Below, piece by piece: positions 6,784 through 52,517 of a stretch of DNA of 64,000 bases (position 1 is the first letter of the stretch; every line of letters starts with the position of its first letter). The notes beneath the pieces were generated by a model. It searched no databases, had not been told where the DNA came from, and saw only the letters and a list, made by a program, of their open reading frames with translations. Location of the stretch: positions 75,370 to 139,369 of the forward strand of contig CAYNTF010000003.1 of assembly GCA_964400145.1 (NCBI GenBank), in the 5' to 3' direction. The stretch comes from an uncultured Lachnospiraceae bacterium (GTDB taxonomy: Bacteria; Bacillota; Clostridia; Christensenellales; UBA1242). Both the position numbers and the translations under genes were made by a program.

Positions 6784-7956
6784 TTATTCATCAAGCGGTT
6801 CAACCGCCCAATTATTGAAGAAATCGCCCATTCTTTGCCAAATTGACTTAGGTTTGATTTCTTCTATTGTATAAATTTTTTCGGAAAATAGCAAGTCATT
6901 ATTCAAAAATATTTCAACTTTTCCAATTTCTGTGCCTTTTTCCAGCGGAGCTTCCACGCTTTGCGGATAGGTGTAGACAATTTTGATGTTTTCCAATTCG
7001 CTGTCAGTGAGCGGATAGACAAAACTTTCTTTGGTTCCAATTTTAGCGCTTTCCACTCGCCCGTCAACAACTTCAATCGTTTGGTTGTAGTCATAAAGTT
7101 CGGTTAAATCGTGAAGTTTGAAATTCTCTGCGCACTCTTGAAGCATGCTGGCACTTTCTGGAAACATAGGTCCACAATTAAGAACCACGCAAACAATTCT
7201 CATTCCGTCCTTTTCAATCGCAGAAACAAGACAGCGTCCCGCATCGTCTGTGAAGCCTGTTTTCACGCCTATGCACCCGTCAAGCGTGAAAAGAAGTTTG
7301 TTTTTGTTTTTCAAATATCTGTTTTCACCGTCGCCTTTTGTGATTTTGATGTTTTTTGTGCCGACAATCTCTCTGAAAGTGTCATTTTCCAACGCATAGG
7401 CAGTTATCAGCGCCAAGTCATAAGCGGTGGTGTAATGCCCGTCAGCGTCAAGCCCGTGCGTGTTGGCAAAGTGAGAATTTTCCGCCCCAATTTTACGCGC
7501 CAAATCATTCATCATCGTCACAAATTCGCTTGTCGAGCCAGCAACATGTTCAGCGATTGCCACAGAAGCGTCATTTCCAGAAATTAGCATCAAGGCATAC
7601 AAAAGGTCGCGCGTGGAATAGACATCGCCTTGTCGAAGATAGAGCGAAGTTCCCGGCACTCCAACTGCTTTTGGCGAAATTTCAAATTTTTCGTCAAGGT
7701 CAGTGCAATTTTCAAGCGCCGTGATTGCCGTCATAATTTTTGTCGTGCTTGCCATTGGAAGTTTTGCGTTTTCGTTGACAGCAAAAAGTTTTCGTTTTGT
7801 GGAAGTTTCAATCACCGCACAACCCTTTGCGGAAGTGTATAGATTGAGAGCGCTTGCGTTTAAACTGTATGTATTTGCAACTCCAAAAAAAAGGAAAATA
7901 GCACAGAAAGACAATATCACAAAAATCGAAAAAACCTTATTAATTCTCATCGACAT
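6784..7956 (-). CDS. D-alanyl-D-alanine carboxypeptidase (peptidase S11)
   Basis: Signal/TM segment, ASTTK (SxxK), SGND and KTG motifs. Start uncertain (7998, 7956 or 7950). Confidence 0.85.
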   Translation of the reverse strand: MSMRINKVFSIFVILSFCAIFLFFGVANTYSLNASALNLYTSAKGCAVIETSTKRKLFAVNENAKLPMASTTKIMTAITALENCTDLDEKFEISPKAVGVPGTSLYLRQGDVYSTRDLLYALMLISGNDASVAIAEHVAGSTSEFVTMMNDLARKIGAENSHFANTHGLDADGHYTTAYDLALITAYALENDTFREIVGTKNIKITKGDGENRYLKNKNKLLFTLDGCIGVKTGFTDDAGRCLVSAIEKDGMRIVCVVLNCGPMFPESASMLQECAENFKLHDLTELYDYNQTIEVVDGRVESAKIGTKESFVYPLTDSELENIKIVYTYPQSVEAPLEKGTEIGKVEIFLNNDLLFSEKIYTIEEIKPKSIWQRMGDFFNNWAVEPLDE

Positions 7957-12130: not shown

Positions 12131-13453
12131 TCAAGCCACTTGGTCAAACTCGTCACCGTTTTCAAGGTCAATGTTGTCTTCGTCATCAAATGTTCCAGCG
12201 CCTTCAACAATCTTCTCGGTCAAATAGCCACCTTCACCTGTGTGCGCTCTTGTTGCGTCAACATAATTGCTGTCAAAGGCAACATCACCAACCAAACTTG
12301 TGCAGTTATAGAACATATTTGTGCTGTCAGTCACTCTTGCAGTTGACCAACCTGTTCCCACATAAATTACTGTAAGAGTCTGACAATTATAAAACATCCT
12401 ACCCATATTTGTCACTCTGCTGGTGTTCCAACTTGACAGGTCTAATTCAGAGAGCTTTAAACAACGATAAAACATCATTTCCATGTTAACAACATTTCTT
12501 GTGTTCCAATTTGAAACATCAACATTTGTCAAATTTGTGCAATTACAAAACATATACTGCATATATTCCGCATTGCTGGTGTTCCAATTTGAAACATCAA
12601 CAGTTTCAATCGGAGTGCTATAAAACATAGCAACAAAATATATCACATTGCTCACATCCCAATTTGCAACATTTATTTCTGCTAATGACTGGCAAGCTTC
12701 AAACATACTCTGCATTCTTATCACTCTACCTACATTCCACTTTGAAACATCAAGTGTGTTTAGCAAGGTGCAACTATAAAACATCCAACCCATGTTAGTC
12801 ACATTGCTCACATCCCATTCTGAAACATCAAGAGTTGTCAGCAATCCGCAGTTATAAAACATATAACTCATATCCGTCACTTTGCTTGTATCAAAGCCAG
12901 AAACATCAAGTGTTGTCAAAGAATCGCAACCATAGAACATATAACTCATGTTTGTAACATTCTTTGTGTTGAAATTGTTCAGAACAATTTCTTCAACGGA
13001 TGCAAAATTATAGAATGCATATGACATGTCAGCATTCACAACAATATCTTTGGTTGAAAGGATATAGATTGTTGTTTCGTCATTGTCTGTAACGCGGTAT
13101 AACCCAATTTGTGCGCCGTTCCAAACATAACTTTCCGCTTCTTGCCCTTCCAAAACATTCACTCCGTTTTCGGTGTATGTGTATTCGCCGTCTTCGGTTT
13201 GGGTATACTCACCACTTTCGTCTTTGTCATAATAATCAAAGACAATTCTTGTCACTGTTTCGTTTTCTTCTTGATAATTCTCGTTATTTTTCAGCAATGT
13301 GTTCAAGTCTTGTCCGCTTGTTATGTCTGTTTTCTCCCCGCTTGAAAGATAAATTGGAAGAAAGATTGCCAGAAACAGAACTGCCACCACTGCCACAACC
13401 GATGCCGTGATAATCGCCACCTTCTTCTTTTTGTTTGTTTCATTTTCAGCCAT
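12131..13453 (-). CDS. DUF285/BspA-like leucine-rich-repeat surface protein, N-terminal TM anchor (paralog 1)
   Basis: Repeated ~25-aa units of the form NVTNMSYMFYGCxSLTTLDVSxWDxS. KKKK followed by a hydrophobic anchor. AAGGAGGT RBS. Confidence 0.85.
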   Translation of the reverse strand: MAENETNKKKKVAIITASVVAVVAVLFLAIFLPIYLSSGEKTDITSGQDLNTLLKNNENYQEENETVTRIVFDYYDKDESGEYTQTEDGEYTYTENGVNVLEGQEAESYVWNGAQIGLYRVTDNDETTIYILSTKDIVVNADMSYAFYNFASVEEIVLNNFNTKNVTNMSYMFYGCDSLTTLDVSGFDTSKVTDMSYMFYNCGLLTTLDVSEWDVSNVTNMGWMFYSCTLLNTLDVSKWNVGRVIRMQSMFEACQSLAEINVANWDVSNVIYFVAMFYSTPIETVDVSNWNTSNAEYMQYMFCNCTNLTNVDVSNWNTRNVVNMEMMFYRCLKLSELDLSSWNTSRVTNMGRMFYNCQTLTVIYVGTGWSTARVTDSTNMFYNCTSLVGDVAFDSNYVDATRAHTGEGGYLTEKIVEGAGTFDDEDNIDLENGDEFDQVA

Positions 13454-13518: not shown

Positions 13519-13545
13519 ATTATAGCATGCGGGGGGGGAACGCAA
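13519..13545 (-). promoter_or_regulatory. Extended -10 promoter with a C8 tract in the spacer: TTGCGT-T-C8-GCATGC-TATAAT
   Basis: Read directly from the minus strand. G8 at 13531-13538 on the + strand; TGC-TATAAT at 13527-13519; 15-bp spacer. Confidence 0.65.
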
Positions 13546-13582
13546 GCATTTTTAAAAATTTTCAGAAAAATTTTTAAAAATG
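13546..13582. repeat. AT-rich near-perfect 17-bp inverted repeat abutting the -35
   Basis: GCATTTTTAAAAATTTTC-AG-AAAAATTTTTAAAAATG. The same element recurs at 52285-52322. Confidence 0.7.
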
Positions 13583-13710
13583 TTGCTTTTTTTGCCAAAA
13601 TCAGCCCAAAATTGACCAAAATTCGCCCATTTTGCCCAAAAATTCACAAAAAAAATGTGAATTTAAACTCAATGAAATTCATAAAAAATTGAAAATTCGC
13701 CGTTCCAAAC

Positions 13711-13745
13711 AAAAAAAAAGACTATAATTTTTATAGCCTTTTTTA
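13711..13745 (-). terminator. Terminator for the 13841..14104 gene
   Basis: GGCTATAA/TTATAGTC stem (one mismatch) then T9 on the minus strand. Confidence 0.55.
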
Positions 13746-13762
13746 ATCAAATGTCTTTATAT

Positions 13763-13818
13763 ATGATTTTGTTAATCTTATCAACCTAATACATGATTTT
13801 GTTAATCTTATCAACCTA
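13763..13818. repeat. Tandem direct repeat, 2 copies with a 30-bp period
   Basis: ATGATTTTGTTAATCTTATCAACCTA at 13763-13788 and 13793-13818, 26/26 identical. Confidence 0.9.
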
Positions 13819-13840
13819 TTCAAAATCAAACTTGAAATTC

Positions 13841-14104
13841 TTATCTTTCTTTTTCTTCTTGTCGACTCTTAATCTCTTCTTTGGTATCATACATCCCTTT
13901 TGTCAAGATATACGCACTCGACGACAGAAGCCCGCCGTAATACCCGCCAATAATCATCCCCTTGGCAACTTCATATCTTTGTTCATTGTTCGAACTGTTT
14001 TGGTTCGCAACAAGCCATGTCAAACCCGCCGAACCTGTCACAAACCCAAAAATCGCCACACAAGCAAAACATTTTAAAATCTTCTTATAAATCTTTCCTT
14101 TCAT
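13841..14104 (-). CDS. Small membrane protein, unknown function
   Basis: AAGGAG 8 nt before MKGKIYKK; two hydrophobic segments; own terminator. Confidence 0.5.
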   Translation of the reverse strand: MKGKIYKKILKCFACVAIFGFVTGSAGLTWLVANQNSSNNEQRYEVAKGMIIGGYYGGLLSSSAYILTKGMYDTKEEIKSRQEEKER

Positions 14105-14211
14105 CTCACGCGCTCCTTTTTCTTTATAACATCCAAGATTATACCACACAAGCAAATGTCTGTCAAGGTTGATTTCAAATTTTTCAAATGATTTTCAGTG
14201 TTTTTTCCTTT

Positions 14212-14940
14212 CTATTTTGAAATGAAATAGTGCCAGAAAAGTGGCAACATGCTTTCATTTGCCGTCACCATGAATTGCACCTGATATGATGGCTCGTTTC
14301 CGCCAACAAAGTGCTTCAGCCGTCGAGCAACTCCGTTTGCGCTGTCAAAAATTTCCACTCCCCGCCCAAAAATATCTTGAAATATCTCCTTCACAGCCAA
14401 ATAATGCGTGCAACCAAGCACAACTCCTTTCATTGATTGCTTAACTTCGGCAATATCGTTTTTCAAACTGTCTTTCAAGCACTGCAAATCATCCAAGTGA
14501 GCGTCTATATCGCTTGCCAGCGTCGGCATTGCTTTCAAAATCAGATTTGGCGTTTTGTTTATCAAAACATTGTGCTTGATTGTCACTTCTGTTGCCAAAA
14601 CCAAGATTTCTTTTGCGTCATATTTTTCCAGCGCTGGCTTGACGGCTGGAACTGTTCCAATGAAAGTTATGTTTGGAAAAACTTTTCGACAGACATCAAT
14701 ACAAGTGCAAGTGAGTGTGTTGCACGCCAGAATGACAATCTCAAATGGAAAAAATGTGTGTATGTCACGCAAATTTTTTAATGTGATTTCTTGCAACTCT
14801 CGCTTGCTTTTGTTGCCATATGGAAGATTTTTGTTATCGCAAAACATCAGAAAGTTGCACCCGCCCACCACGCTGACGCACTCTTTGAGTATGTTTATGC
14901 CCCCGCTTCCGCTGTCGATTAAAAGAACATTTTTCATCAT
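14212..14940 (-). CDS. murI: Glutamate racemase
   Basis: DSGSGG, ILACNTLT and GCTHY motifs. Confidence 0.85.
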   Translation of the reverse strand: MMKNVLLIDSGSGGINILKECVSVVGGCNFLMFCDNKNLPYGNKSKRELQEITLKNLRDIHTFFPFEIVILACNTLTCTCIDVCRKVFPNITFIGTVPAVKPALEKYDAKEILVLATEVTIKHNVLINKTPNLILKAMPTLASDIDAHLDDLQCLKDSLKNDIAEVKQSMKGVVLGCTHYLAVKEIFQDIFGRGVEIFDSANGVARRLKHFVGGNEPSYQVQFMVTANESMLPLFWHYFISK

Positions 14941-15050
14941 TCATATATATGCGGAAATCAAAATAACTTGCGTTTTTCAACTTTAATTTTAAATGTTTTA
15001 ACGCGCTTAACAAAACTGTGGTTCGTTTTTAGCACATATATGCGAATATA

Positions 15051-15797
15051 TCAAATCAGTGTGTCGATGACCTCTGCGACCAACCCAGACAGAAATTCAA
15101 TTTTCTCTTCCACATCTTTTTCTGCCAAGACAATCTCCTTTTTTTCGCCCAATGATGCGGAAGAAATCATCATCGGAACGCCCAAAGCAAAACACGGCAC
15201 ATTGAGAGTGGATTTGTTTATCGGCATTCCAAAATTGTTCATGGCACTGCCCGGCGTCAGTCCTGCGTCGTTGAATTGTATCGAAGTCCCCAGCCGAGAT
15301 AGCGTCTTTGTTGCAAGGCTATCAAACAAAAAGACCGCCGAAATGTCAAACGCTTCAACGACAAGTCGGATGATATCGCACGCGTTCAAACCTGTGTTGG
15401 CAAAAACATTTGGCATAATTTTGAAAACTCTATTTTTCTTCTTAAACGGCATTATGGTGATTTTCTCAACCGTTCTCACGCCGAAACTGTCCGCCATAAC
15501 CGCCGGATTGCCAATGCCAACAAAAAGAATTCGTCCACTTTTCGTAATTTTTTGTTCCTTAAACAAAAATTTTAAACGATAGGTGAGTTCTGTCTGCAAA
15601 ATTTCTCTGTGTTCTTCCATCAAAAGAGAAAGATTTGGCGCGTTTATGATGAAATAATGCCCCTTTTCAAAATCTTTTATCCGCCTGTTTTGATTGACAA
15701 AAAGTTTGCTTGCCGTGACGCCAAACTTCCCCAAATTGACAGTTTCATAGCCAAAAGCGGACAAATCTTCTCCACTTTCATCAATTAAATCGCTCAT
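15051..15797 (-). CDS. gpr: Germination protease-like endopeptidase (GPR, peptidase A25), short form
   Basis: ILFVGIGNPAVMADSFG ... DAGLTPGS ... ALGVPMM. Divergent from rpsT, as in Bacillus. Confidence 0.65.
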   Translation of the reverse strand: MSDLIDESGEDLSAFGYETVNLGKFGVTASKLFVNQNRRIKDFEKGHYFIINAPNLSLLMEEHREILQTELTYRLKFLFKEQKITKSGRILFVGIGNPAVMADSFGVRTVEKITIMPFKKKNRVFKIMPNVFANTGLNACDIIRLVVEAFDISAVFLFDSLATKTLSRLGTSIQFNDAGLTPGSAMNNFGMPINKSTLNVPCFALGVPMMISSASLGEKKEIVLAEKDVEEKIEFLSGLVAEVIDTLI

Positions 15798-30681: not shown

Positions 30682-32679
30682 TTAAACTGTGGCTTGTGCC
30701 AACATTTGATAAATTGCGACTTTGAAATCATAATTTTGGACTTTGCCTTTTTCTTTGTCAATGTCAAAAAAGATTTCAATATAATCACATTCACCTAAAA
30801 ACTTTTCATAATTCAAAGTGCCATAAAAACCATAAGTCGACGACTCGTTGAGCATATAATACTCTCTCGCACTGCTTCCCGCCGTTATGAGCATACTTTT
30901 ATACTCACTGTCATCGTCGTCAATGCCTGTGCTGTTGGCATACGGGTCTATTGCACTGTTTCCAATATCTTTTTTAAATTCGCTCAAAATAAATCCATCG
31001 CCAATCTCATAATCTGTGCCGGTTCCAGTGTCACTGAAAGTCACAAAATGCGCTTCATAACTTTCTTCATAATCACTGCTGGTGTTATCTGTTGGAAGAG
31101 GTTCATAATCAATGGTTATTGACACAACATAATCTCCTTCACCGTTGTTTATCAAACCCGTCGAAGAGTTATAGTATCTCAATCCCACATTGATTGTTAT
31201 TGATTTACCATAATTTATGCCCTCAGGGTCATCTTCATCATAATATTCAAACACCAACCAAAGGTCACCAATCGCCTTTCCATAATCTTCTTCATTTGGA
31301 TATATGATGATGCTTTGATATTCCGCTGCTGGAATATACGCAAAAATGTCATCATCCGAATTATCTATGAATGCCGGTCCAAAATAATTGCCTTCATAGT
31401 CAGTGATTTGCGATGCCAAAAACGCCTGATCCAACGCCAAAGGTTCGCCATCCGAACTTGTGCCGATTGGCGCTTTTTCGCAAGCATACTCAATGATATT
31501 GTTTATGATTGCATCATAGTTGCGATTGAATTGCAAATCGCCACTTGAATTGTGAACTCCGTTTTCATAGTATGCCACAGTAAACTCGCTCTGCATGTAT
31601 GCGTCTTCGCCGATAATCACATCTTTAATAAAATCTGCCACTTGCTTCTTGTTCTCTTCGGTCAAACCAACATATCCACCCAAAGCCTCATACAATTCTT
31701 TGACGCGCGCAAGTGCCGATTTTGTTTGCTCGTCCCCTTTTGAAACGGAAATAGGCTCATTTTCCCAACCGCCAACCAAGACATCCGTCACTTGTCCATT
31801 TTCGTCATACACAATCGTGAATTCAAAATATTTGGCATCGTCATCATAATCATAATAATCATATCCCAGCACAAACAAATAGACAGCATATTCCAACGCG
31901 TCTTGGAAATAGTTAACCGCATCCCCAATGTTGCCACTTTCAGTCAAGTTATAATAAGGCGAAATCCAATAATAGACATTGTCATTCTTATTGTTAACAT
32001 AGCCATCTTCACCATAAGTATAGAACTCCGAGAAAGAAGAAAGATCAATATCTACCTCATATATATGAAACCAATCATCATAGTCATCTCCTGAAAAACT
32101 GAAAGAATTCCCACTGTTTATAACATCTGAAGCTTTTAAAAATACAATTTCTTTGTCTTTGGCATCATTGGAGATTGTCCAATTCCAAGCACTGTTTGTG
32201 TCAATTTCAACAACGATACTTTCAAGATTGTCGTCAACATAAACCTTCTCAACTTGAGTGATTGTGTATCTCAAACTGTCATACAGATAGTATAATTGAT
32301 CATCATCACTTGTTTCGGAAGAATATGTGTAACCATTTGATGTGTCAAGACTTTTGTAACCATTTTCAAGATCTGTTTCTGTTGGATTATAAATGATTGC
32401 TCTCACATCTTCATCTGTTCGCGAAGTTACGCTGTCATCTTCGTATACATTATATAACAAATTCAAAACTTCTCTTGCGAATAAGTTATAATAATTTTCG
32501 GAATAAACATCAACTGCCTCAGCAAAATCATAGTCGGCAGGTTTTGAAAGCACTTTCACCCCTTCCATGGATAACTCTGAATCATCCAAAAGACTGCTTG
32601 GACCGCCGTCCACGCATCCAACAAAGAACAAAAACATAAAACAAAACAAGAATGAAAGAAATCTTTTTTTATTCTTCAT
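30682..32679 (-). CDS. Large acidic D/Y/E-rich lipoprotein, unknown function
   Basis: Signal peptide with lipobox FFVGC; no recognisable domain. Confidence 0.7.
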   Translation of the reverse strand: MKNKKRFLSFLFCFMFLFFVGCVDGGPSSLLDDSELSMEGVKVLSKPADYDFAEAVDVYSENYYNLFAREVLNLLYNVYEDDSVTSRTDEDVRAIIYNPTETDLENGYKSLDTSNGYTYSSETSDDDQLYYLYDSLRYTITQVEKVYVDDNLESIVVEIDTNSAWNWTISNDAKDKEIVFLKASDVINSGNSFSFSGDDYDDWFHIYEVDIDLSSFSEFYTYGEDGYVNNKNDNVYYWISPYYNLTESGNIGDAVNYFQDALEYAVYLFVLGYDYYDYDDDAKYFEFTIVYDENGQVTDVLVGGWENEPISVSKGDEQTKSALARVKELYEALGGYVGLTEENKKQVADFIKDVIIGEDAYMQSEFTVAYYENGVHNSSGDLQFNRNYDAIINNIIEYACEKAPIGTSSDGEPLALDQAFLASQITDYEGNYFGPAFIDNSDDDIFAYIPAAEYQSIIIYPNEEDYGKAIGDLWLVFEYYDEDDPEGINYGKSITINVGLRYYNSSTGLINNGEGDYVVSITIDYEPLPTDNTSSDYEESYEAHFVTFSDTGTGTDYEIGDGFILSEFKKDIGNSAIDPYANSTGIDDDDSEYKSMLITAGSSAREYYMLNESSTYGFYGTLNYEKFLGECDYIEIFFDIDKEKGKVQNYDFKVAIYQMLAQATV

Positions 32680-32701
32680 ATTTATATGATATCACAAAAG
32701 A

Positions 32702-32741
32702 CAAAAAAAAACAAGGAATTTTAACCATTCCTTGTCGTTTT
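32702..32741. terminator. Terminator between lipoprotein genes
   Basis: ACAAGGAAT/ATTCCTTGT 9-bp stem flanked by A-run and T-run. Confidence 0.7.
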
Positions 32742-32744
32742 TAT

Positions 32745-34223
32745 TTATTTTGTGTATCCTATTTCTTTCAAAAGCGAAGTTGAAGAATAAAGGCTTCGAT
32801 TTCCGTTGTCAATTTCTTTTGTTGAATATACAGAAGCTTCCCAATATTTTGTGTTGCTTATAATATTGGCAATGGCATTTTTCTCACCCAAATATATTGA
32901 TGAAGCAACCCCCATTTGCAAAAGTTGCATTTGCCCATCAATTTCCACCAAATAATATTGGTCCCAAGAAGCGACATATCCATAAGTTGAACTTGCGTAC
33001 ACACCAAAAACCGGAGTTTTGAAAGCGTAATAAATCTTATCAACAGTCACCCCAGCTTTTTCAAGCACTCTTTCAGTCAATGCTTCAAACTCTTCTTTAT
33101 GCTCACTTTCATAGTCGTCATCCAAAGTTGTATATTCAACTTCCTGAGTGCTCTTTGTTCTATATTTGGTTTTTTTCATTGAATTTAAAAACTCTTTAAA
33201 TTCTTTTTGAGTTTGATACTCTCCATTCGCAAAACCGGTATAAAGATCGTCATCACCTATATAAGAGTATCTATAATATGTGTCGTCAAGTTTATCTGTG
33301 CAATGTTTCACGATAGTGCCAAATCCAATCATGTCAACATCTGCGTCAATATACAAAACCTCGCTGATGTAATAACTATCATCTGACGCCCTTTCAGAAA
33401 GAATATCTCTTCCAAACTGGTTGTCACCTAATATCCAAGGCACAAGAACTTCATAAATCGCAGAAATGTTGAAAATATAGTTTCCATTTGAATCGATTTC
33501 ATAGATGTTTTCGCCCTCTGCTGTGTCTTCAATTTCTGGCAAATCAACAACTGTCGTTCCAATGTCGGTGATAACAATTTCTTCATCAGAGAAATTCAAC
33601 AACATCTCGCCATTGCTGATTTGCATTGTCACTGTTTCGCCGTCAATGGTTCCGGTCAATATGTTGTTGTTCGCATCGAATTCAGTCCAGTTGATGTCTT
33701 TAAGGTCTGAAACAATGATAGAAACAGCCGTCGAAATATCAAGTTGGTCTGTGGAATTTTTCTGCCATGCACCATTTTCATATGTTATTGCATAATTGAC
33801 GCCGTCTTCAAGAACATAATAAGCCACCACTCCATTGTCATCAACTTCCACCATATCGCCGTCAAAATTATATAATGCATAATCCCCCGAAGAACTTGTG
33901 ATGGAATATGTGAAATTGCCATTTTCCATGGAACTGATATAAGAATTCACTGTGGCAACCGCTTCATCTAAATTGTCGCTTTCATCAAGATTGCTATCCA
34001 CCATTTTTTCAGATTGTTCCTCCACCTTGTTTTGCTCTGATTCACTTTGTTCTGACTCGTTGTAGGTATCTTCTGGAACAGTTTGAACAATTTGAATATC
34101 GTCCGAATTTGACTCATCAACATTTGAACTTGCTTGGCTCCCACACCCCACAAATTCAAAAGCGCTCACAACGGCGATGCCAGATGAAATTGCAAACAAT
34201 GCGAATTTTTTAAGATTTTTCAT
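32745..34223 (-). CDS. Lipoprotein, unknown function (family member A)
   Basis: Lipobox EFVGC; GGGAGG 8-9 nt before the second ATG. Shares the DIGTTVVxLPE C-terminal motif with the two downstream paralogs. Confidence 0.7.
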   Translation of the reverse strand: MKNLKKFALFAISSGIAVVSAFEFVGCGSQASSNVDESNSDDIQIVQTVPEDTYNESEQSESEQNKVEEQSEKMVDSNLDESDNLDEAVATVNSYISSMENGNFTYSITSSSGDYALYNFDGDMVEVDDNGVVAYYVLEDGVNYAITYENGAWQKNSTDQLDISTAVSIIVSDLKDINWTEFDANNNILTGTIDGETVTMQISNGEMLLNFSDEEIVITDIGTTVVDLPEIEDTAEGENIYEIDSNGNYIFNISAIYEVLVPWILGDNQFGRDILSERASDDSYYISEVLYIDADVDMIGFGTIVKHCTDKLDDTYYRYSYIGDDDLYTGFANGEYQTQKEFKEFLNSMKKTKYRTKSTQEVEYTTLDDDYESEHKEEFEALTERVLEKAGVTVDKIYYAFKTPVFGVYASSTYGYVASWDQYYLVEIDGQMQLLQMGVASSIYLGEKNAIANIISNTKYWEASVYSTKEIDNGNRSLYSSTSLLKEIGYTK

Positions 34224-34252
34224 TTTCATATCCTCCCTTTTTGTTTTTATTC

Positions 34253-34281
34253 ATTTTATCACAAAATTTTAAAAAATACAA
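34253..34281 (-). promoter_or_regulatory. Promoter TTGTAT-17-(TGa)TAAAAT for the 32745..34223 gene
   Basis: Spacing counted directly; lies inside repeat copy A. Confidence 0.5.
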
Positions 34282-34394
34282 TAAATTTTTAAATATTTTT
34301 CAAAATTTTACAATATAATTTCATTTTCCAAAATTGAAGCAAACTTCTTCAAATTTGACAAACTTAATAACAAAATTCCATGTTAAAAACTTAA

Positions 34395-34427
34395 CAAAAA
34401 AGACAAGGGGCGTTAAAGCACCTTGTC
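34395..34427 (-). terminator. Terminator overlapping the stop codon of the 34413 gene
   Basis: GACAAGG/CCTTGTC stem enclosing the TAA stop, then T6 on the minus strand. Confidence 0.6.
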
Positions 34428-35093
34428 ATTTTCTGCAAGTTTAGCTGAAATTACATCTTCACTCGTGTTGTCAATAACATTCTCAGGCAATGTCACAATC
34501 GTTGTTCCAATGTCACTGAAAACATACAATCCACCTGGGGCTTTATAGTAAATTTCCCCATTCTCAATTTTAATATCACTAGAAAATCCGACCATACTAT
34601 TTCCTGATAACACACCTTCTTCTTGATCATATGAGAACCACTTAATTGTTTTTGCTAATATCATTGGATAGCTTCGTATATCATCTATAAGAGTTGCATT
34701 TTCCAAAATCCTACTACTCCAATAGCCATCATCATCCTTACGTATTTGATAAACCACACCATTTTCAGTGTAATAATAATAACTCTTTCCCAAATATGTG
34801 TATTCAACCAAATCGTTATCAAGTTTAAAATAGTACTCCAATTCTTGACTATCCGTATTATAACAAGTTAAAGTAAAATTGCTCCCTTCTTGAACAGCAA
34901 CCAAGCATTCAGTTACTTCTGCAACTGCATTTTCAAAAAGTTCTTCTTGCCCTTTTTCTTCTTCACTTTTGGACAAGCCACACCCAGCAAAAGCGAATGC
35001 TGTCGTCAAAGAAATTCCAGAAGCAAGCGCAAATGTGACAAATTGTTTAAGATTTTTAATTTTCCTATCCCCCCTTTTTTGTTTTTTATTCAT
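34413..35093 (-). CDS. Lipoprotein paralog P1; start codon uncertain (ATG 35093 or ATT 35060)
   Basis: Lipobox FAFAGC; ~50-60% identical by eye to P2. ATG 35093 overlaps the predicted -10 element. Confidence 0.6.
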   Translation of the reverse strand: MNKKQKRGDRKIKNLKQFVTFALASGISLTTAFAFAGCGLSKSEEEKGQEELFENAVAEVTECLVAVQEGSNFTLTCYNTDSQELEYYFKLDNDLVEYTYLGKSYYYYTENGVVYQIRKDDDGYWSSRILENATLIDDIRSYPMILAKTIKWFSYDQEEGVLSGNSMVGFSSDIKIENGEIYYKAPGGLYVFSDIGTTIVTLPENVIDNTSEDVISAKLAENDKVL

Positions 35094-35120
35094 TTTATCA
35101 CAAAACTTTAAAAAATACAA
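35092..35120 (-). promoter_or_regulatory. Promoter TTGTAT-17-(TGa)TAAAAT for P1
   Basis: Duplicate of the promoter at 34253-34281. Confidence 0.5.
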
Positions 35121-35233
35121 TAAATTTTTAAATATTTTTCAAAATTTTACAATATAATTTCATTTTCCAAAATTGAAGCAAACTTCTTCAAATTTGACAA
35201 ACTTAATAACAAAATTCCATGTTAAAAACTTAA

Positions 35234-35266
35234 CAAAAAAGACAAGGGGCGTTAAAGCACCTTGTC
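35234..35266 (-). terminator. Terminator overlapping the P2 stop codon
   Basis: Duplicate of the terminator at 34395-34427. Confidence 0.6.
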
Positions 35267-35896
35267 AGTTTCTGCAAGTTTAGTTGTTGAAATTTCATCT
35301 TCAGTCGTGTCGTCAATGACATTCTCAGGCAATGTCACAGTCGTTGTTCCAATGTCACTGAAAACACACAATCCACCTGGGGCTTTATAGTAAATTTCCC
35401 CATTATTTACACTCATTTGAATTGAATAGCCATCTTGTGTTCCTGACAATACATTTTCTTCTTCATTATATGACGACCAGTTAATTGTTTCTAATAATGT
35501 TGTTGAAAAAGTACGGAAAATTTCAATAAAATATGGGTCATCCATAATTTCAGTCTTCCAATATCCATCGTCATCCTGCGACATTTGATAAAGGATATCA
35601 TTTTCAGTGTAACAATATTTAAGATCACCTAAATATAGATACTCCACTAAATCACCATCAAATTTGAAATAATAGACCAGTCGATTATTAAGATATCTAG
35701 TATAAGTGAAATTATTCATTTCTTGAACAGCAGTCAAGCGTTCTGTTACTTCTTCAACCGCGTTTTCAAAAACTTCTTCTTGCCTTTTTTCTTCTTCACT
35801 CATGAACAACTCACACCCAGCAAAAGCGAATGCTGTGGTTAGAGAAATTCCGGAAGCAAGCGCAAGTGTGGCAAATTTTTTAAGATTTCCTTTCAT
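35252..35896 (-). CDS. Lipoprotein paralog P2
   Basis: Lipobox FAFAGC. A G7 run (35903-35909) acts as the SD, 6 nt before ATG 35896. Confidence 0.7.
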   Translation of the reverse strand: MKGNLKKFATLALASGISLTTAFAFAGCELFMSEEEKRQEEVFENAVEEVTERLTAVQEMNNFTYTRYLNNRLVYYFKFDGDLVEYLYLGDLKYCYTENDILYQMSQDDDGYWKTEIMDDPYFIEIFRTFSTTLLETINWSSYNEEENVLSGTQDGYSIQMSVNNGEIYYKAPGGLCVFSDIGTTTVTLPENVIDDTTEDEISTTKLAETDKVL

Positions 35897-35923
35897 AAAC
35901 ATCCCCCCCTTCTTCCTATGTCA

Positions 35924-42735: not shown

Positions 42736-42901
42736 GATAGAAATCAAAATTTAATCTAAATTAAAAACATAAAAAATAAAATAAAAAATGAAATAGGGAA
42801 TGAAAAAGATAACTATAAAAACAAAATAAATCAAACAATTAAATCGCCTAAAAAACAGATTAAAACAAAAAAAGTGACATCAATTTGTCACTTTTTTTCG
42901 A

Positions 42902-43912
42902 TCAATCTTTATCTTTGCCGTCACGCTTTTCATTCACATGGAACTCTTCATCATAAAGTTTTCTGCTTCTTTCATTCAAAATATTTTTTTTATCAGGGAT
43001 TTCTCTCCCCAAAGCTTTCAATTCATTGCAAAATCTTTTCACTTCATTGTCATAAATGTAGGTAAAATCTTTATAAATCTTTCTTGTATCACGCGCTATT
43101 TTTTTAAATAAAGCATCTTCTTCATTTAACCCTTCTTGCTTTTCTCTCATTGAGTCAAGAAGTCCATCGCAAGCATGATTATAACATATTGTATAATTAT
43201 TTAAATTAATTGAGTCATCACAGGCGATAATATCAGAAATTCTGGCTTGACCATCTGGAAGTTCTGCCACTTCTGACAACCTAAGCATCAATTTGACACT
43301 TTCTGAAAACTCTGTGCTGATTTTAAGATATCTGAAAAGCTCCGGATCTTCCTTTACCATATCAAAAAGTTTTGTATCAAACCCGCTGTAACCATTATTA
43401 CCAGTTATATAAATTGTATCACTATGTTTAATTATCTCTTCTTTTTTGTCAGTAGTTTTCGAAACGGCGGTTTTTGGAGCAGCGTTTTTGTTTTGTTTAG
43501 CGCCGGCCGTTGCTGTCATCTCTATCAATTCATCAACACTTTGTGGAACTTTTTCCGTTGGCTTTTTCTCAACAACCTTTCCAAAAACTTCTTTGTCAAT
43601 ATCATCGTTGTAAAACTCAATAGAATTTAACTGACTTGCGATTTCAAGAATCATGTGATTTTCCTCTTTGGAAAATCTCTTTCCAGAGCGTGAGTTTTGA
43701 ATTTTGACATCCGAAAACTGTTGAGATAAGCGCTCAACATCCCGTCTTGTTTTAGCAATATTTTTTTCAATCTTTTGCTTTTGTTTATCGGTGAATTTTT
43801 GATTTATCGGTGAAAACATATCTTTGCTAAACATTTGGCTAACAGCAGCCAAATTATTCTTGCATTCATTCAATTTTGCATGTATGTTCGTCAATTTTTT
43901 AATTGTGTTCAT
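42902..43912 (-). CDS. Hypothetical protein, 336 aa; coiled-coil N-terminus; no signal peptide
   Basis: Long ORF; GGGGAAATG start context 8 nt after the upstream gene's stop. No motif I recognise. Confidence 0.7.
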   Translation of the reverse strand: MNTIKKLTNIHAKLNECKNNLAAVSQMFSKDMFSPINQKFTDKQKQKIEKNIAKTRRDVERLSQQFSDVKIQNSRSGKRFSKEENHMILEIASQLNSIEFYNDDIDKEVFGKVVEKKPTEKVPQSVDELIEMTATAGAKQNKNAAPKTAVSKTTDKKEEIIKHSDTIYITGNNGYSGFDTKLFDMVKEDPELFRYLKISTEFSESVKLMLRLSEVAELPDGQARISDIIACDDSINLNNYTICYNHACDGLLDSMREKQEGLNEEDALFKKIARDTRKIYKDFTYIYDNEVKRFCNELKALGREIPDKKNILNERSRKLYDEEFHVNEKRDGKDKD

Positions 43913-43920
43913 TTCCCCTC

Positions 43921-44445
43921 CTAGTCCCCGAGAGTTTTGCCATCACTAATTTTATAAGTGTGACTCATGATTGGTTTTGGTTCAGAATATTCTCTTTCGG
44001 TTGCATAATTCAAAAAAACTGAACCATATTCATCTGTTTGCATAACTTGCCTTTCAACATAATCGCTTTCACTGACATCCACCTTAATTTGCCCGTTGCT
44101 TAAAAGACCAAGTTTTTGGATAGTCTTGCCAAAATCCTCAACTTTTTTGCCTAATTTTGACATGAATTCATCTCGTGCACACGCATATGCACCATTTTCA
44201 AAAAAGAATTTTTCAACAAATTGCCTAAATGATGAATCATATTTGTTGAAAATCACTTCTTCAAGGTCTTCAAAAAGCCCAAAATTGTCATTCCAACTTC
44301 TTCTTCCAAACCTATTATCGCCTTCGATGGACATTTGAATGCAAATTGTGTTCCCATTTTGCTCTTTTGCAAGAGGGTTGGTTGAAGGCTTCATAAAGTC
44401 ACCTCCAATCTCAAAATCAAATTGGTCATGTGTTCTTGTATTCAT
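43921..44445 (-). CDS. Hypothetical protein, ~174 aa; no signal peptide
   Basis: GGAGGT 8 nt before ATG 44445 (MNTRTHDQ...). The ATG at 44460 is too close to the -10 element. Confidence 0.7.
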   Translation of the reverse strand: MNTRTHDQFDFEIGGDFMKPSTNPLAKEQNGNTICIQMSIEGDNRFGRRSWNDNFGLFEDLEEVIFNKYDSSFRQFVEKFFFENGAYACARDEFMSKLGKKVEDFGKTIQKLGLLSNGQIKVDVSESDYVERQVMQTDEYGSVFLNYATEREYSEPKPIMSHTYKISDGKTLGD

Positions 44446-44471
44446 TGTTTTTACCTCCATTATTTTTTGCC

Positions 44472-44500
44472 ATTATAGCACGGGGGGGGGAACTTGTCAA
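44472..44500 (-). promoter_or_regulatory. Perfect consensus promoter TTGACA-17-TGcTATAAT with a C9 tract in the spacer
   Basis: Minus strand reads TTGACA AGTT C9 GTGC TATAAT. G9 lies at 44482-44490 on the + strand. Confidence 0.75.
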
Positions 44501-44872
44501 GTATTTTTTTAAAAAAGTTTATTTTTTGTTTAATTTCACTATTTTTGTCAATTTTTTTTGATTTTGACAATTTTTTGGTTATGATTTTGGCAAGTTTTTG
44601 AATGTTTCTTACTTTTTTGTTTCTTTTCATTTTTTCTAAATTTTCGTTAACTTTCTTCATTTTAGCAATGTTTTGGCTAAACAAAAATTTAAACAATAAA
44701 AATATATAACAAAAAACAAGTCAAGAAATCACCTAAACAAACATAAAAACATAATAACATAATAAACAAAAAACAACTCACCAAATGTAAAACAAACCAA
44801 GTTCAAAACAACTTAACAAGGCGAAATAAAGAAGATAAAGAATAATTCGGAATAAAAATTTAAGTAAATATA

Positions 44873-44912
44873 ATAAAAAAAAGACCACCAGCGGAAAATG
44901 GTCTTTTTTTTG
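44873..44912. terminator. tuf terminator (bidirectional)
   Basis: AAGACCA/TGGTCTT stem flanked by A8 and T8. Confidence 0.75.
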
Positions 44913-50198: not shown

Positions 50199-50292
50199 TT
50201 TGTTCTCCTTTTAAGGCAATCATCTTTTGACGAACTGCCAAACTCGACTTTGTTTTAAATCGAAGTCACGATTTGTCTTTCGCTTATTTGTT

Positions 50293-50324
50293 AAAAACAA
50301 AAAAGGCACGATATATTTCGTGCC
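50293..50324 (-). terminator. Terminator/attenuator hairpin ~100 nt upstream of rpsL
   Basis: GGCACG-AAATATAT-CGTGCC then T6 on the minus strand. Confidence 0.55.
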
Positions 50325-50589
50325 ATGAAAAATGCTTTATCTTTCAAACATGAACAACACAATCACATTTCTGCGACTCCAAGAAAAACTTTCTTGAATC
50401 GGTGGAATTGGAATTTTTGCAACAGAACATCGTTTCAACCTATTATATAAGCGATAAGCCAAAACAAATCAAGATTGCACAAATTGTACCATTTTGGGCA
50501 CAGCCACCTGTTGTTTGTTTATGCTTAACCGTCAAGGTTTCCCCCGACAAATTCAAAGCATGGGTTTCCGACAACGAAACACATTTTGT

Positions 50590-50618
50590 ATTATAAACAT
50601 TTCGCCAATCGTTGTCAA
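50590..50618 (-). promoter_or_regulatory. Perfect consensus promoter TTGACA-17-TATAAT
   Basis: Spacing counted directly; ~385 nt upstream of the rpsL ATG. Confidence 0.65.
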
Positions 50619-50705
50619 GTGTTTTTATCAAGAAAATTAAGTTTTTTAAAAAACAATCTTTCAAGTGTGTTCAGTTTTTTGTGAGGACAAATAATGAGTG
50701 TCGAT

Positions 50706-52091
50706 TCAGTCATTGTCACCGTCAAGGTTGCCAGTGGCTTTTTCGCTGATGTCGGTCAAATAGCCATAAGCCTGCAACTCTTCTTTGTATCCAGCATAGG
50801 CGTATGTTTTGTTCGTGACACTTCCATTTTCAGTGAAATTTGGAAGAGATGTGCATCTAGAGAACATTGATGAATCAGTTTCAACCGCATCTGTTGACCA
50901 GCCTTCACCAACATAGATTGTTTCAAGGCTTGTGCAACCAGTGAACATACAATACATATTCGTCACTTTGCTGGTGTCAAAGCTTGAAATGTCTATTGAA
51001 GTCACATTTCCTAAACCTGCAAACATATATTCCATGTCTGTCACATCACTTGTGTTAAAATTCGACAAATCTAATTCTCCAGTTAAACCTGCCCAAGCAA
51101 ACATCCATTTCATATCTGTGGCACTGCTGGTGTTCCAATTTGAAAGAAAATCAATTCCTGTCAATTTAAAGCAGTTAAAAAACATACCATTAAATTCCTT
51201 CACATTGCTTACATCCCAATTTGATATATCACCAAAATTTGTTAACTTTTCACAAGTACCAAACATCCAACTCATGCTTGTCACACTGCTTACATCCCAA
51301 TTTGAAAGGTCAACTTCTTCCAAAGCGCTACAGCCACTGAACAAATTAAACATTTCTATCACATTGCTTGTATCCCACTTGGAAACATCAATAGTTGTCA
51401 AAGAACTGCAGTGGAGAAACAAAGACCCCATACTTGTCACATTACTCGTGTTCCAATTTGAAACATCAAGTTCGTCTAAAGATCTACAACCTGCAAACAT
51501 TGTCCACATGCTTGTCACATTGCTCACATCCCACTTGGAAACATCAAGCGTTGTCAAAGAACTGCAATTATAAAACATCCACCCCATATCTGTCACACTG
51601 CTTGTGTTGAAATTGTTGAAAGCAATCTCTTCAACGGATGTAAAATTATAGAATGAATATGATGCATCTTCATTTGCAACAATTTCTTCGGTTGAAAGGA
51701 TGTAGATTGTTGTGTCAACGCGATATAAGTCAATCTGTGTTTTGTTCCAAGTGTATGACTCCGCTGTTTGCCCTTCCAAAACATTTACATCATCTTCGGT
51801 GTAAGTATAGTTGCCATCCTCGGTTTGTGTATAGGCACCACTTTCGTCTTTGTCATAGTAGTCAAAAACAATTCTCTTCACTGTGGTGTCTTCCGCTGTG
51901 TAACTATCACTTTTTTTCAACAATGTGTTCAAAGTCGAACCGCTTGGCAAATTTGTGTTGTCTGTTTCACTTGATTTTTGAGTGAGATAGATTGGAAGAA
52001 AAATCGCCAGAAACAGAACCGCCACCACGCCTACAACTGACGCTGTGATGATTGCCACCTTTTTCTTTTTGTTTGTTTCATTTTCAGCCAT
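50706..52091 (-). CDS. DUF285/BspA-like leucine-rich-repeat surface protein (paralog 2)
   Basis: The same N-terminal ~170 aa as paralog 1 (MAENETNKKKKVAIITASVV...); divergent repeats of the form SVTDMGWMFYNCSSLTTLDVSKWDVSNVT. Confidence 0.85.
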   Translation of the reverse strand: MAENETNKKKKVAIITASVVGVVAVLFLAIFLPIYLTQKSSETDNTNLPSGSTLNTLLKKSDSYTAEDTTVKRIVFDYYDKDESGAYTQTEDGNYTYTEDDVNVLEGQTAESYTWNKTQIDLYRVDTTIYILSTEEIVANEDASYSFYNFTSVEEIAFNNFNTSSVTDMGWMFYNCSSLTTLDVSKWDVSNVTSMWTMFAGCRSLDELDVSNWNTSNVTSMGSLFLHCSSLTTIDVSKWDTSNVIEMFNLFSGCSALEEVDLSNWDVSSVTSMSWMFGTCEKLTNFGDISNWDVSNVKEFNGMFFNCFKLTGIDFLSNWNTSSATDMKWMFAWAGLTGELDLSNFNTSDVTDMEYMFAGLGNVTSIDISSFDTSKVTNMYCMFTGCTSLETIYVGEGWSTDAVETDSSMFSRCTSLPNFTENGSVTNKTYAYAGYKEELQAYGYLTDISEKATGNLDGDND

Positions 52092-52256
52092 TTTTTAATA
52101 ACCTCCCTTTAATATTTTTTCTTTTGGCTTTTTCATAGTTTTTGCATAACCAACCATATATATAAGTTCAATTTGTCAGTTTTCACTGATTTCAATCCGA
52201 CGCGCAGATTTCAAATCTTGACGAATTATATAGTCAGTTTTCGCAAACCCAATACC

Positions 52257-52284
52257 ATTGTAGCATGCGGGGGGGGGAAGGCAA
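52257..52284 (-). promoter_or_regulatory. Extended -10 promoter with a C9 tract in the spacer: TTGCCT-T-C9-GCATGC-TACAAT
   Basis: G9 at 52269-52277 on the + strand; 16-bp spacer. Confidence 0.6.
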
Positions 52285-52322
52285 GCATTTTTAAAAATTT
52301 TCAGAAAATTTTTTAAAAATGC
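52285..52322. repeat. AT-rich inverted repeat abutting the -35 (copy of 13546-13582)
   Basis: GCATTTTTAAAAATTTTC-A-GAAAATTTTTTAAAAATGC. Confidence 0.7.
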
Positions 52323-52517
52323 TTGTATTTTTCCAAAAAATCAGCCCAAAATTGACCAAAAATTGCTCATTTTGCCAAAAATTCATAAAAAAATGACAAA
52401 TTTTCGCTCATCATTTCTCAAAAAAATATCAAAAAAAGTTGTAAATTTAACAAAAAAAATGCCAATTCCTGCAAGAAATTGACATAAAAAATTTTACTTT
52501 TTTCAATTACACAAAAA

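What the first reader, a model, noticed from the sequence alone, without database searches (positions are those of the whole stretch)
44472..44500. Perfect consensus promoter whose 17-bp spacer is built around a C9 homopolymer: candidate slipped-strand ON/OFF switch
The minus strand reads TTGACA-AGTT-CCCCCCCCC-GTGC-TATAAT. That is a perfect -35, a perfect -10, a TGn extended -10, and an exactly optimal 17-bp spacer, of which 9 bp are one C run (G9 at 44482-44490 on the + strand). The window is AT-rich, and the only G/C runs of 8 or more that I found are this one and two others (13531, 52269), all in the same promoter position. A homopolymer inside the -35/-10 spacer is the textbook design for phase variation by slipped-strand mispairing, as in the Mycoplasma hyorhinis vlp poly-A tract and the Neisseria and Haemophilus promoter tracts. 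Gaining or losing one C changes the spacer to 18 or 16 bp. I am not aware of this mechanism being a recognised feature of sporulating Clostridia-like Firmicutes.
Basis: partly seen in the sequence, partly recalled or inferred. Interest (0 to 1): 0.85.

Follow-up and report, generated by a model that had tools for sequence, protein, structure and literature searches.

The report
Poly-C tract inside a consensus promoter
A run of nine C's sits exactly between the two recognition boxes of a textbook-perfect promoter in an uncultured spore-forming gut Clostridia genome; elsewhere this design lets bacteria randomly dial a gene up or down, and here the tract is clearly kept by selection, but no length change has yet been seen at this locus.

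Summary
On the minus strand, 44500..44472 reads TTGACA-AGTT-C9-GTGC-TATAAT. The window has only three G/C runs of 8 or more, against about 0.006 expected, and all three lie in extended -10 promoter spacers.

The promoter drives a 2-kb, AT-rich, terminator-bounded cassette of two near-orphan genes. The closest relatives lack this cassette. The other two tracts (C8, C9) lie in paralogous promoters of two PARCEL/DUF285 membrane-anchored surface proteins.

The only homologous cassette I could find is in another spore-former. Its proteins are about 30% identical, yet it carries the same module: TTGACA-N4-C9-GTGN-TATAMT, 38 of 46 nt identical. The tract is therefore under selection.

A sister species has a G9 tract that frameshifts a conserved syntenic gene, and G10 would restore it.

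These results favour a slipped-strand contingency promoter. I expect a volume control rather than a strict ON/OFF switch, because the -10 is extended.

Variation at this locus is not shown. Four same-strain assemblies and the distant homologue all read C9, so a static, sequence-specific role for the tract remains a real rival.

If it is a switch, it is a new member of a known kind in an unexpected lineage.

The parts
44495..44500 (-). -35 hexamer TTGACA
44482..44490 (-). C9 homopolymer (G9 on + strand). It fills the centre of the 17-bp spacer (44478-44494).
   Evidence: The same C9 occurs in L135 at 4516-4524.
44472..44480 (-). TG-C-TATAAT: extended -10 (TG at 44480-44479) plus the -10 hexamer at 44477-44472. 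The predicted TSS is near 44465.
   Evidence: The TSS is inferred and was not tested.
44501..44620 (-). A-tract-rich upstream region. It includes CTTTTTTAAAAAAATAC (44517-44501), which is conserved with L135. Likely an UP-element or curved DNA.
   Evidence: 38/46 nt identical module. Function is inferred.
43921..44445 (-). First cassette gene, 174 aa. It is an ORFan with a GGAGG Shine-Dalgarno at 44458-44454 and no signal peptide.
   Evidence: (only self-hit among 5.8 billion clusters)
42902..43912 (-). Second cassette gene, 336 aa, all-helical. It has only two distant homologues (30-33% identity).
42867..42898 (-). Terminator closing the cassette. It is shared with the relative L083 and marks the right boundary of the insertion.
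44875..44911 (-). tuf terminator. It marks the left boundary of the roughly 2-kb insertion (about 44874..42899, GC 31.8%).
13519..13545 (-). Paralogous promoter, site 2: TTGCGT-T-C8-GCATGC-TATAAT (15-bp spacer, TGn).
52257..52284 (-). Paralogous promoter, site 3: TTGCCT-T-C9-GCATGC-TACAAT (16-bp spacer, TGn).
12131..13453 (-). PARCEL/DUF285 surface protein with an N-terminal TM anchor, driven by site 2.
50706..52091 (-). PARCEL/DUF285 surface protein, a paralogue (52% identity; the 5' cassette is conserved), driven by site 3.

Best explanation
The C9 run is a contingency tract built into a portable sigma-A promoter module: A/T-rich UP region, TTGACA, 4 nt, C9, GTGn, TATAAT. The module drives an accessory two-gene cassette of unknown function.

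Proposed mechanism:
- During replication the homopolymer slips, so a minority of cells carry C8 or C10.
- That changes the -35/-10 spacer from the optimal 17 bp to 16 or 18 bp. Transcription of the 174-aa and 336-aa genes then falls heritably but reversibly.
- Because the -10 is perfect and TG-extended, I expect graded 'volume control', not full silencing.
- The same device, with different flanks, sits on the promoters of two PARCEL surface-protein paralogues. Their present spacers are 15 and 16 bp, which are suboptimal states.
- Poly-G tracts in a sister species act within coding sequence.
- Together these tracts would form a small poly-G/C 'phasome' in this spore-forming Clostridia lineage.

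What is shown: the anatomy, the non-randomness, conservation of the tract, a one-base tract difference between the paralogues, a tract-associated frameshift in the sister species, and the accessory nature of the cargo.

What is inferred: that slippage occurs at a useful rate, that expression depends on tract length, and that the TSS lies where predicted.
For: 1. About 0.006 G runs of 8 or more are expected and 3 are observed. The run-length spectrum is bimodal. All three runs lie in TG-extended promoter spacers, which cover 0.93% of the window. The other 33 such spacers are A/T-rich.
2. The only full-length homologue of the 336-aa protein (P0021, 30% identity) lies in a different spore-former contig, next to SpoIIR, SipL and Veg. 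It sits behind TTGACA-ATTA-C9-GTGT-TATACT with a 17-bp spacer. The promoter module is 38/46 nt identical without gaps, while the coding DNA has no colinear blastn match. An uninterrupted C9 would not survive that divergence without selection.
3. The paralogous promoters at sites 2 and 3 align base for base apart from a single-C indel in the tract, C8 versus C9.
4. In the sister species (L083, 81-93% nt identity), a G9 tract splits a Zn-ribbon gene. The G10 reading is 52-64% identical, without gaps, to intact syntenic orthologues. Tract length has therefore changed in this genus, with an ON/OFF consequence.
5. The cargo is typical of contingency loci.
   - The cassette is absent from the closest relatives and is inserted between two terminators.
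   - Sites 2 and 3 drive TM-anchored PARCEL/DUF285 surface proteins with a conserved 5' cassette and a divergent body.
   - In Mycoplasma, PARCEL genes are described with homopolymer or dinucleotide contingency loci in their 5' flanks (PMC2996958; PMC2824730).
6. The island is AT-rich (31.8% GC), so the tract is not a residue of GC-rich foreign DNA.
Against: - No length polymorphism was seen at this locus. The window and three Logan assemblies (SRR7039257, SRR7039262, SRR7039263) all read C9. These are 100% identical DNA from one study, so they represent one strain.
- The independent homologue also reads exactly C9. This fits a fixed sequence requirement at least as well as a switch sampled twice in its ON state.
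- The sister-species G9 tracts are also identical in four assemblies.
- The perfect hexamers and the TGn motif should buffer a 1-bp change in spacer length.
- The cargo of this particular promoter shows no surface or restriction-modification features. It has no signal peptide and no Pfam, PADLOC, PHROG or NCBIfam hit.
- Mismatch-repair status, the TSS and expression were not testable.
Confidence: 0.55

Rival explanations
1. Static promoter element. The C9·G9 block is a fixed, sequence-specific part of this promoter module. It could be a rigid, A-form-like spacer that sets twist or supercoiling sensitivity, or the binding site of an unknown factor. It is conserved for that reason. Slippage is incidental and selected against.
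For: - C9 occupies the same position, 4 nt from each hexamer, in two cassettes whose proteins are only about 30% identical.
- Every assembly of each strain gives the same consensus length.
- The flanking GTG and the CTTTTTTAAAAA block are also conserved.
Against: - I found no precedent for a factor or requirement that needs an uninterrupted C9 in a sigma-A spacer (literature searches). The other 33 extended -10 spacers in the window are A/T-rich.
- The paralogous promoters tolerate C8 and C9 with different flanks.
- The same genus has G9 tracts inside coding sequence, where a promoter-structure role cannot apply. One of them is frameshifting.
- A 9-nt G/C run is physically slippage-prone whatever its purpose (established knowledge).
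Confidence: 0.28
2. Translational rather than transcriptional switch. The tract lies inside a small lysine-rich ORF (44460..44696; the gene caller used for the Logan contigs called 66 aa), and its length sets that ORF's reading frame.
For: A gene caller annotated a 66-aa ORF across the tract in L001 and L128. The tract would encode PPP.
Against: - The ORF is low-complexity A-rich sequence without a Shine-Dalgarno.
- It overlaps a 12/12 consensus promoter.
- L135 keeps the promoter module, but the upstream sequence there is unrelated.
Confidence: 0.03
3. Chance, or a by-product of horizontally acquired DNA or of sequencing and assembly, with no function.
For: The cassettes are strain-specific insertions.
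Against: - The expected count is about 0.006 against 3 observed.
- The island is AT-rich.
- Independent assemblies give identical sequence.
- The tract is conserved in L135.
Confidence: 0.02
4. Invertible-promoter switch of the Clostridioides difficile or Bacteroides type, with the tract incidental.
For: A 10-nt inverted repeat (44491-44500 / 44564-44573) overlaps the -35.
Against: - The arms are short and enclose only 63 bp, which does not include the -10.
- No recombinase gene lies nearby.
- All assemblies show one orientation.
Confidence: 0.02

Closest known systems
Neisseria meningitidis porA (poly-G), opc and fetA (poly-C) promoter-spacer tracts
   Same: A G/C homopolymer of about 9-13 nt lies between -35 and -10. 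Tract length sets the spacer length and so the transcription level. Expression is graded rather than binary (own knowledge; general SSR phase-variation context in PMC5320596 and PMC5953494, listed).
   Different: - Those are Gram-negative pathogens with documented length polymorphism and switching, and outer-membrane cargo.
- Here the host is a spore-forming Firmicute, variation is not shown, and the cargo is cytoplasmic-looking orphan proteins.
- Here the hexamers are perfect and the -10 is TG-extended.
Mycoplasma hyorhinis vlp (poly-A) and the M. mycoides/capricolum Vmm/Vmc (TA)n promoter-spacer switches, including contingency loci 5' of PARCEL/DUF285 genes
   Same: - A repeat tract sits in the promoter spacer.
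- A conserved 5' cassette (promoter, UTR, anchor) precedes a divergent surface-protein body, exactly as at sites 2 and 3.
- PARCEL proteins are the cargo (PMC2996958).
- Poly-G tracts are conspicuous in AT-rich genomes (PMC2824730).
   Different: - Mollicutes are wall-less, non-sporulating and use lipoprotein signal peptides.
- Here the proteins have an uncleaved TM anchor with no lipobox Cys, the tract is poly-C, and the host has sporulation genes.
Bordetella pertussis fim2/fim3 promoter C-stretch
   Same: A poly-C run lies upstream of the -10. Its length sets the register between an upstream recognition site and the -10 (own knowledge; Bordetella homopolymer survey PMC1891110, listed).
   Different: - Those tracts are longer (about 13-15 C), replace a -35 and depend on the activator BvgA.
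- Here a consensus -35 is present. Sites 2 and 3 instead have a CodY-box-like palindrome upstream.
Campylobacter and Helicobacter poly-G/C phasome
   Same: The genome is AT-rich with a bimodal excess of G/C runs of 8-10 nt at accessory or surface loci. Tracts occur both between and within genes (L083; PMC6321876 listed).
   Different: - Those tracts are mostly intragenic, number dozens per genome, lie in MMR-deficient hosts, and have measured switching rates.
- Here only 3 tracts were seen in 64 kb plus 2 in 22 kb of the sister species, and MMR status is unknown.
Clostridioides difficile phase variation (cwpV, flgB, cmrRST, pdcB/pdcC)
   Same: Heritable stochastic control of accessory or surface functions in a spore-forming Clostridia (PMC11868660).
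   Different: That system works by site-specific inversion of promoter-bearing segments, not by repeat slippage. No inverton features are present here.

Membership tests
Promoter-spacer homopolymer contingency locus (slipped-strand transcriptional phase variation) | Uninterrupted mononucleotide repeat of slippage-prone length (G/C of 8 or more) | tested here: met
   C9 at 44482-44490. Expected count about 0.006.
Promoter-spacer homopolymer contingency locus (slipped-strand transcriptional phase variation) | Tract lies between the -35 and -10 of the promoter, so that its length sets the spacer length | tested here: met
   TTGACA-17-TATAAT with the tract central. The promoter is defined by sequence only.
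Promoter-spacer homopolymer contingency locus (slipped-strand transcriptional phase variation) | Promoter is functional (TSS downstream of the -10) | not testable with these tools
   No transcriptome data. Supporting context only: a Shine-Dalgarno and ATG 20-27 nt downstream, terminators on both sides, and conservation in L135.
Promoter-spacer homopolymer contingency locus (slipped-strand transcriptional phase variation) | Tract length differs among cells, strains or orthologous loci | tested here: inconclusive
   - Site 1: C9 in the window, in 3 same-strain Logan assemblies and in the distant homologue L135.
- Closest relatives lack the locus.
- The paralogous promoters differ, C8 versus C9.
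- No read-level data.
Promoter-spacer homopolymer contingency locus (slipped-strand transcriptional phase variation) | Expression level depends on tract length; switching is reversible and frequent | not testable with these tools
   Needs reporter fusions and fluctuation assays.
Mycoplasma-type modular contingency cassette for PARCEL/DUF285 surface proteins | Conserved 5' cassette (promoter with repeat tract, UTR, N-terminal anchor) joined to a divergent PARCEL-repeat body | tested here: met
   Applies to sites 2 and 3. The 5' region is 87-93% nt identical and the proteins are 52% identical overall. They hit TIGR02167 at 1e-72 and 5e-79. Does not apply to site 1.
Mycoplasma-type modular contingency cassette for PARCEL/DUF285 surface proteins | Lipoprotein signal peptide with lipobox cysteine | tested here: not met
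   The N-terminus MAENETNKKKKVAIITASVVAVVAVLFLAIFLPIYL has a hydrophobic anchor but no Cys.
Campylobacter-type poly-G/C phasome | Genome-wide excess and bimodal length distribution of G/C tracts, concentrated in accessory or surface genes | tested here: inconclusive
   - Bimodal in the 64-kb window.
- All 3 tracts lie at accessory loci.
- 2 more lie in the sister species' island.
- None in about 95 kb of more distant relatives.
- Whole genomes were not available.
Campylobacter-type poly-G/C phasome | Frameshifted (OFF) alleles of otherwise intact genes at tracts | tested here: met
   L083 7598-7606. G9 is out of frame, and G10 restores a protein 52-64% identical to intact orthologues. This is in the sister species, not in the window.
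Invertible promoter (inverton) | Promoter flanked by inverted repeats of about 15-30 bp, with a nearby or global invertase; both orientations occur | tested here: not met
   Only a 10-nt inverted repeat enclosing 63 bp without the -10. No recombinase among the annotated neighbours. All assemblies show one orientation.

The most novel reading that the evidence does not exclude
Uncultured spore-forming gut Clostridia carry a portable 'C9 promoter module': UP region, TTGACA, N4, C9, GTGn, TATAAT. It travels with very fast-evolving orphan gene cassettes and, in a variant form, with PARCEL surface proteins. The uninterrupted tract is kept at the ON length by selection for mutability. These bacteria would then have a repeat-based phasome of the Campylobacter/Mycoplasma kind, a mode of phase variation so far described in Clostridia only through DNA inversion.
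Probability: 0.35. Interest if true: 0.7.

Novelty: new member of a known kind. Interest (0 to 1): 0.5.

Why it matters
Repeat-mediated phase variation is a hallmark of host-adapted pathogens such as Neisseria, Haemophilus, Campylobacter and Mycoplasma. In Clostridia, the phase variation covered by a recent review is inversion-based (PMC11868660).

If these tracts do switch, spore-forming gut commensals would also use slipped-strand contingency promoters to diversify surface proteins and orphan accessory cassettes. That would affect three things:
- how strain-level heterogeneity in metagenomes is read;
- how MAG consensus sequences hide ON/OFF states;
- where to look for colonisation or phage-interaction genes.

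The conserved 46-nt module also gives a concrete search key and a ready-made test construct.

Tried and rejected
- **Orthologous loci for tract comparison.** The 174-aa protein has no homologue. The closest relatives, reached through the EF-G 90% cluster and through S12, lack the cassette altogether.
- **GTDB genome scan with the DUF285 protein.** It returned 80 loci at 50% identity or less across many phyla. None had a related promoter or tract.
- **JGI metagenome scan.** The pattern CTTGN{2,5}TTCCCCCCCN{1,12}TGCTAYAAT gave 37 unrelated hits, mostly GC-richer with C7. The pattern was too narrow and would have missed L135.
- **N-terminal 176 aa of the PARCEL paralogue.** No hits.
- **Viral contigs.** No relative of the cassette and no promoter module, so a phage moron origin is not supported.
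- **Function of the cargo.** Pfam, PADLOC, PHROGs and NCBIfam were all empty. The AlphaFold models were poor (pLDDT 35 and 56). Foldseek against the PDB gave only generic helical bundles with E above 0.3.
- **Contig ends as a proxy for heterogeneity.**
  - L002 starts 16 nt before the tract, which does not match the break point a C8/C9/C10 bubble would give at k=31 (my reasoning).
  - L132 and L133 stop at 13613, before site 2.
  - Both cases are uninformative.
- **Genetic code 4.** Suggested by a 350-aa Logan gene call. Rejected because TGA ends 23 of 51 long ORFs and Trp is read from TGG.
- **Source study.** A literature search for the SRR accession prefix found nothing.

Full report
**Observation**

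The minus strand from 44500 to 44472 reads TTGACA-AGTT-CCCCCCCCC-GTGC-TATAAT. That is a 12/12 match to the sigma-70/sigma-A consensus, with a 17-bp spacer and a TGn extended -10.

The window is 37% G+C. It has only three G/C runs of 8 or more: G8 at 13531-13538, G9 at 44482-44490 and G9 at 52269-52277. The + strand G-run counts for lengths 1 to 9 are 7530, 1109, 94, 10, 2, 0, 0, 1, 2. Markov extrapolations of order 1 to 4, with the three tracts masked, expect 0.0006-0.006 G runs of 8 or more.

All three runs lie inside spacers of TG-extended promoter-like sites. Such spacers cover 0.93% of the window, and the other 33 are A/T-rich.

Sites 2 and 3 are copies of one promoter, so they count as a single event. 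They read TGCTTGC[G/C]TT-C8/C9-GCATGC-TA[T/C]AAT, and their spacers are 15 and 16 bp.

**What the promoter drives**

Downstream lie a GGAGG Shine-Dalgarno, a 174-aa ORF (43921-44445) and a 336-aa ORF (42902-43912). The tuf terminator (44911-44875) bounds the unit upstream and a second terminator (42898-42867) bounds it downstream.

The 174-aa protein has no homologue among 5.8 billion protein clusters. An exhaustive HMMER search of 1.84 billion representatives found only two distant relatives of the 336-aa protein. Pfam, PADLOC, PHROGs and NCBIfam gave nothing. Structure prediction and Foldseek were also uninformative.

Sites 2 and 3 drive two paralogous PARCEL/DUF285 repeat proteins with an N-terminal membrane anchor. 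Their promoter, 5' UTR and anchor-coding region are 87-93% identical in DNA. The proteins as a whole are 52% identical.

**Lineage and synteny**

The window encodes YqfD and the germination protease Gpr, so the host is a spore-forming Firmicute. TGA is a stop codon.

I reached relatives through the EF-G 90% cluster and through ribosomal protein S12. They share the backbone uvrD-ligA-[x]-rpsL-rpsG-fusA-tuf-[y]-SepF.
- At [y], every relative lacks the two-gene cassette. The alignment places the roughly 2-kb insertion (31.8% G+C) exactly between the two terminators.
- At [x], the window has a PARCEL gene with its C9 promoter.
- At [x], the sister species (L083, GCA_964594865.1, 81-93% nt identity) has other small genes with two G9 tracts.
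- At [x], more distant relatives have a 110-aa Zn-ribbon gene and no long G/C run.

Long G/C tracts in this group are therefore confined to accessory islands.

**Key comparative result**

The one full-length homologue of the 336-aa protein (P0021, 30% identity) lies on an ENA contig next to SpoIIR, SipL and Veg, so its host is another spore-former. A 147-aa gene, weakly similar to the 174-aa one, precedes it.

Upstream of that pair is TTGACA-ATTA-CCCCCCCCC-GTGT-TATACT, which again gives a 17-bp spacer. It is the only long G/C run on that 6-kb, 34% G+C locus.

From CTTTTTTAAAAA to the end of the -10, the two promoter modules are 38/46 nt identical without gaps. The coding DNA has no colinear blastn match. 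A perfect C9 cannot persist neutrally across that divergence, so the tract is selected.

**Does tract length change in this lineage?**

Two results say it does.
- The paralogous promoters differ by exactly one C within otherwise aligned flanks.
- In the sister species, a G9 run splits a Zn-ribbon gene into two frames. Read as G10, it gives a 107-aa protein that is 52-64% identical, without gaps, to intact syntenic orthologues that have no homopolymer at that place.

Against this, every consensus I could reach is constant:
- C9 at site 1 in three Logan assemblies (SRR7039257, SRR7039262, SRR7039263). These are 100% identical to the window, so they are the same strain.
- G9 in four assemblies of the sister strain.
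- C9 in the distant homologue.

No read-level data were available.

**Mechanism**

My preferred explanation (about 0.55) is a slipped-strand contingency promoter. Slippage of C9 to C8 or C10 changes the spacer to 16 or 18 bp and lowers transcription heritably and reversibly.

Two points rest on established knowledge. A 9-nt G/C run is inherently indel-prone. A 1-bp change in the spacer alters sigma-70-type promoter strength. A perfect, TG-extended -10 also lessens the promoter's dependence on the -35.

The four promoter tracts seen give spacers of 17, 17, 16 and 15 bp. At least one coding tract in the sister species is out of frame. This mix of states is what a phasome looks like.

The main rival (about 0.28) is that C9 is a fixed, sequence-specific spacer element. 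That fits the exact C9 conservation. It has no precedent that I could find. It also does not explain the coding-sequence tracts in the sister species or the C8/C9 paralogues.

I regard the other rivals as excluded or very unlikely: chance, artefact, a small overlapping ORF, and an inverton.

**Comparison with known systems**

The design matches the promoter-spacer tracts of Neisseria (porA, opc, fetA), Bordetella fim and Mycoplasma vlp/Vmm/Vmc.

The PARCEL link has a direct precedent. Mycoplasma PARCEL genes are reported with homopolymer or dinucleotide contingency loci in their 5' flanks (PMC2996958). Poly-G tracts are also noted at the 5' ends of M. agalactiae surface-protein genes (PMC2824730).

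The defining functional features were not testable here: length polymorphism at the locus, length-dependent expression and reversibility. I therefore do not claim membership as proven.

A 2025 review of phase variation mentions Clostridia only for invertible promoters (PMC11868660). If the tract is a switch, it is a new member of a known kind in an unexpected lineage.

**Verdict**

Interest is 0.5. The decisive test is cheap: count tract-length alleles in the existing SRR70392xx reads and in further copies of the 46-nt module.

Noticed in passing
L083 7533-7855 (G9 at 7598-7606); orthologues at L084 8212-8544, L085, L086, L129-L131: In the sister species a G9 tract splits a small Zn-ribbon gene (CPIC...CPAC) into two frames. 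Read as G10 it is 52-64% identical, without gaps, to intact syntenic 110-115 aa orthologues that have no homopolymer there. The tract is G9 in all four assemblies.
   Followed up: yes
L083 6984-7075 (G9 at 7007-7015): A second G9 lies in a 15-codon leader ORF ahead of a 141-aa orphan gene whose Shine-Dalgarno sits in a CACCT-GTGG-AGGTG hairpin. In the G10 frame the leader ORF would end at an ATGA overlap with the gene's start codon. This suggests tract-dependent translational coupling. Read by eye only.
   Followed up: partly
window 52296-52310 and 13557-13571: The only 0- and 1-mismatch matches in the window to the CodY box AATTTTCWGAAAATT lie at the centre of a roughly 45-bp A/T palindrome that abuts the -35 of the two PARCEL promoters. 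These surface proteins may also be under nutritional (CodY) control.
   Followed up: partly
window 52092-52250 (minus strand): The 5' UTR of the PARCEL gene 50706-52091 carries a roughly 100-nt insertion relative to its paralogue. It folds into a long stem with two internal hairpins (MFE -29.4 kcal/mol, z = -2.5) and matches no Rfam family above threshold.
   Followed up: partly
window 50200-52500 and 42870-44880; L083, L084, L129-L131: The ligA-rpsL and tuf-SepF/M18 intergenic regions are hot spots where related species carry different accessory cassettes (PARCEL gene, orphan operon, Zn-ribbon gene, 141-aa gene) within an otherwise conserved ribosomal-protein/EF backbone.
   Followed up: yes
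window 35903-35909 and 35069-35074 (G7 and G6 on the minus strand): The only other G/C runs of 6 or more sit at the Shine-Dalgarno position of two adjacent Pfam-less genes (35252-35902, 34413-35120). Two near-identical promoters TTGTAT-N17-TAAAAT lie at 35120-35092 (upstream of 34413-35120) and 34281-34253 (upstream of the next gene, 32745-34229). The runs may be poly-G ribosome-binding sites in another orphan gene cluster (30682-35902).
   Followed up: no
L132 and L133 (window 13613-15427): Logan contigs from two different runs both end at window position 13613, about 70 nt upstream of the site-2 C8 tract. This suggests a graph branch (a further paralogue or population heterogeneity) in the PARCEL promoter region.
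   Followed up: no
L001 1111-2163 versus window 42902-43912: The gene call on the Logan contig reads through the TGA stop (350 aa instead of 336 aa), apparently by using genetic code 4 on a short AT-rich contig. In the window TGA ends 23 of 51 long ORFs, so this is an annotation artefact.
   Followed up: yes
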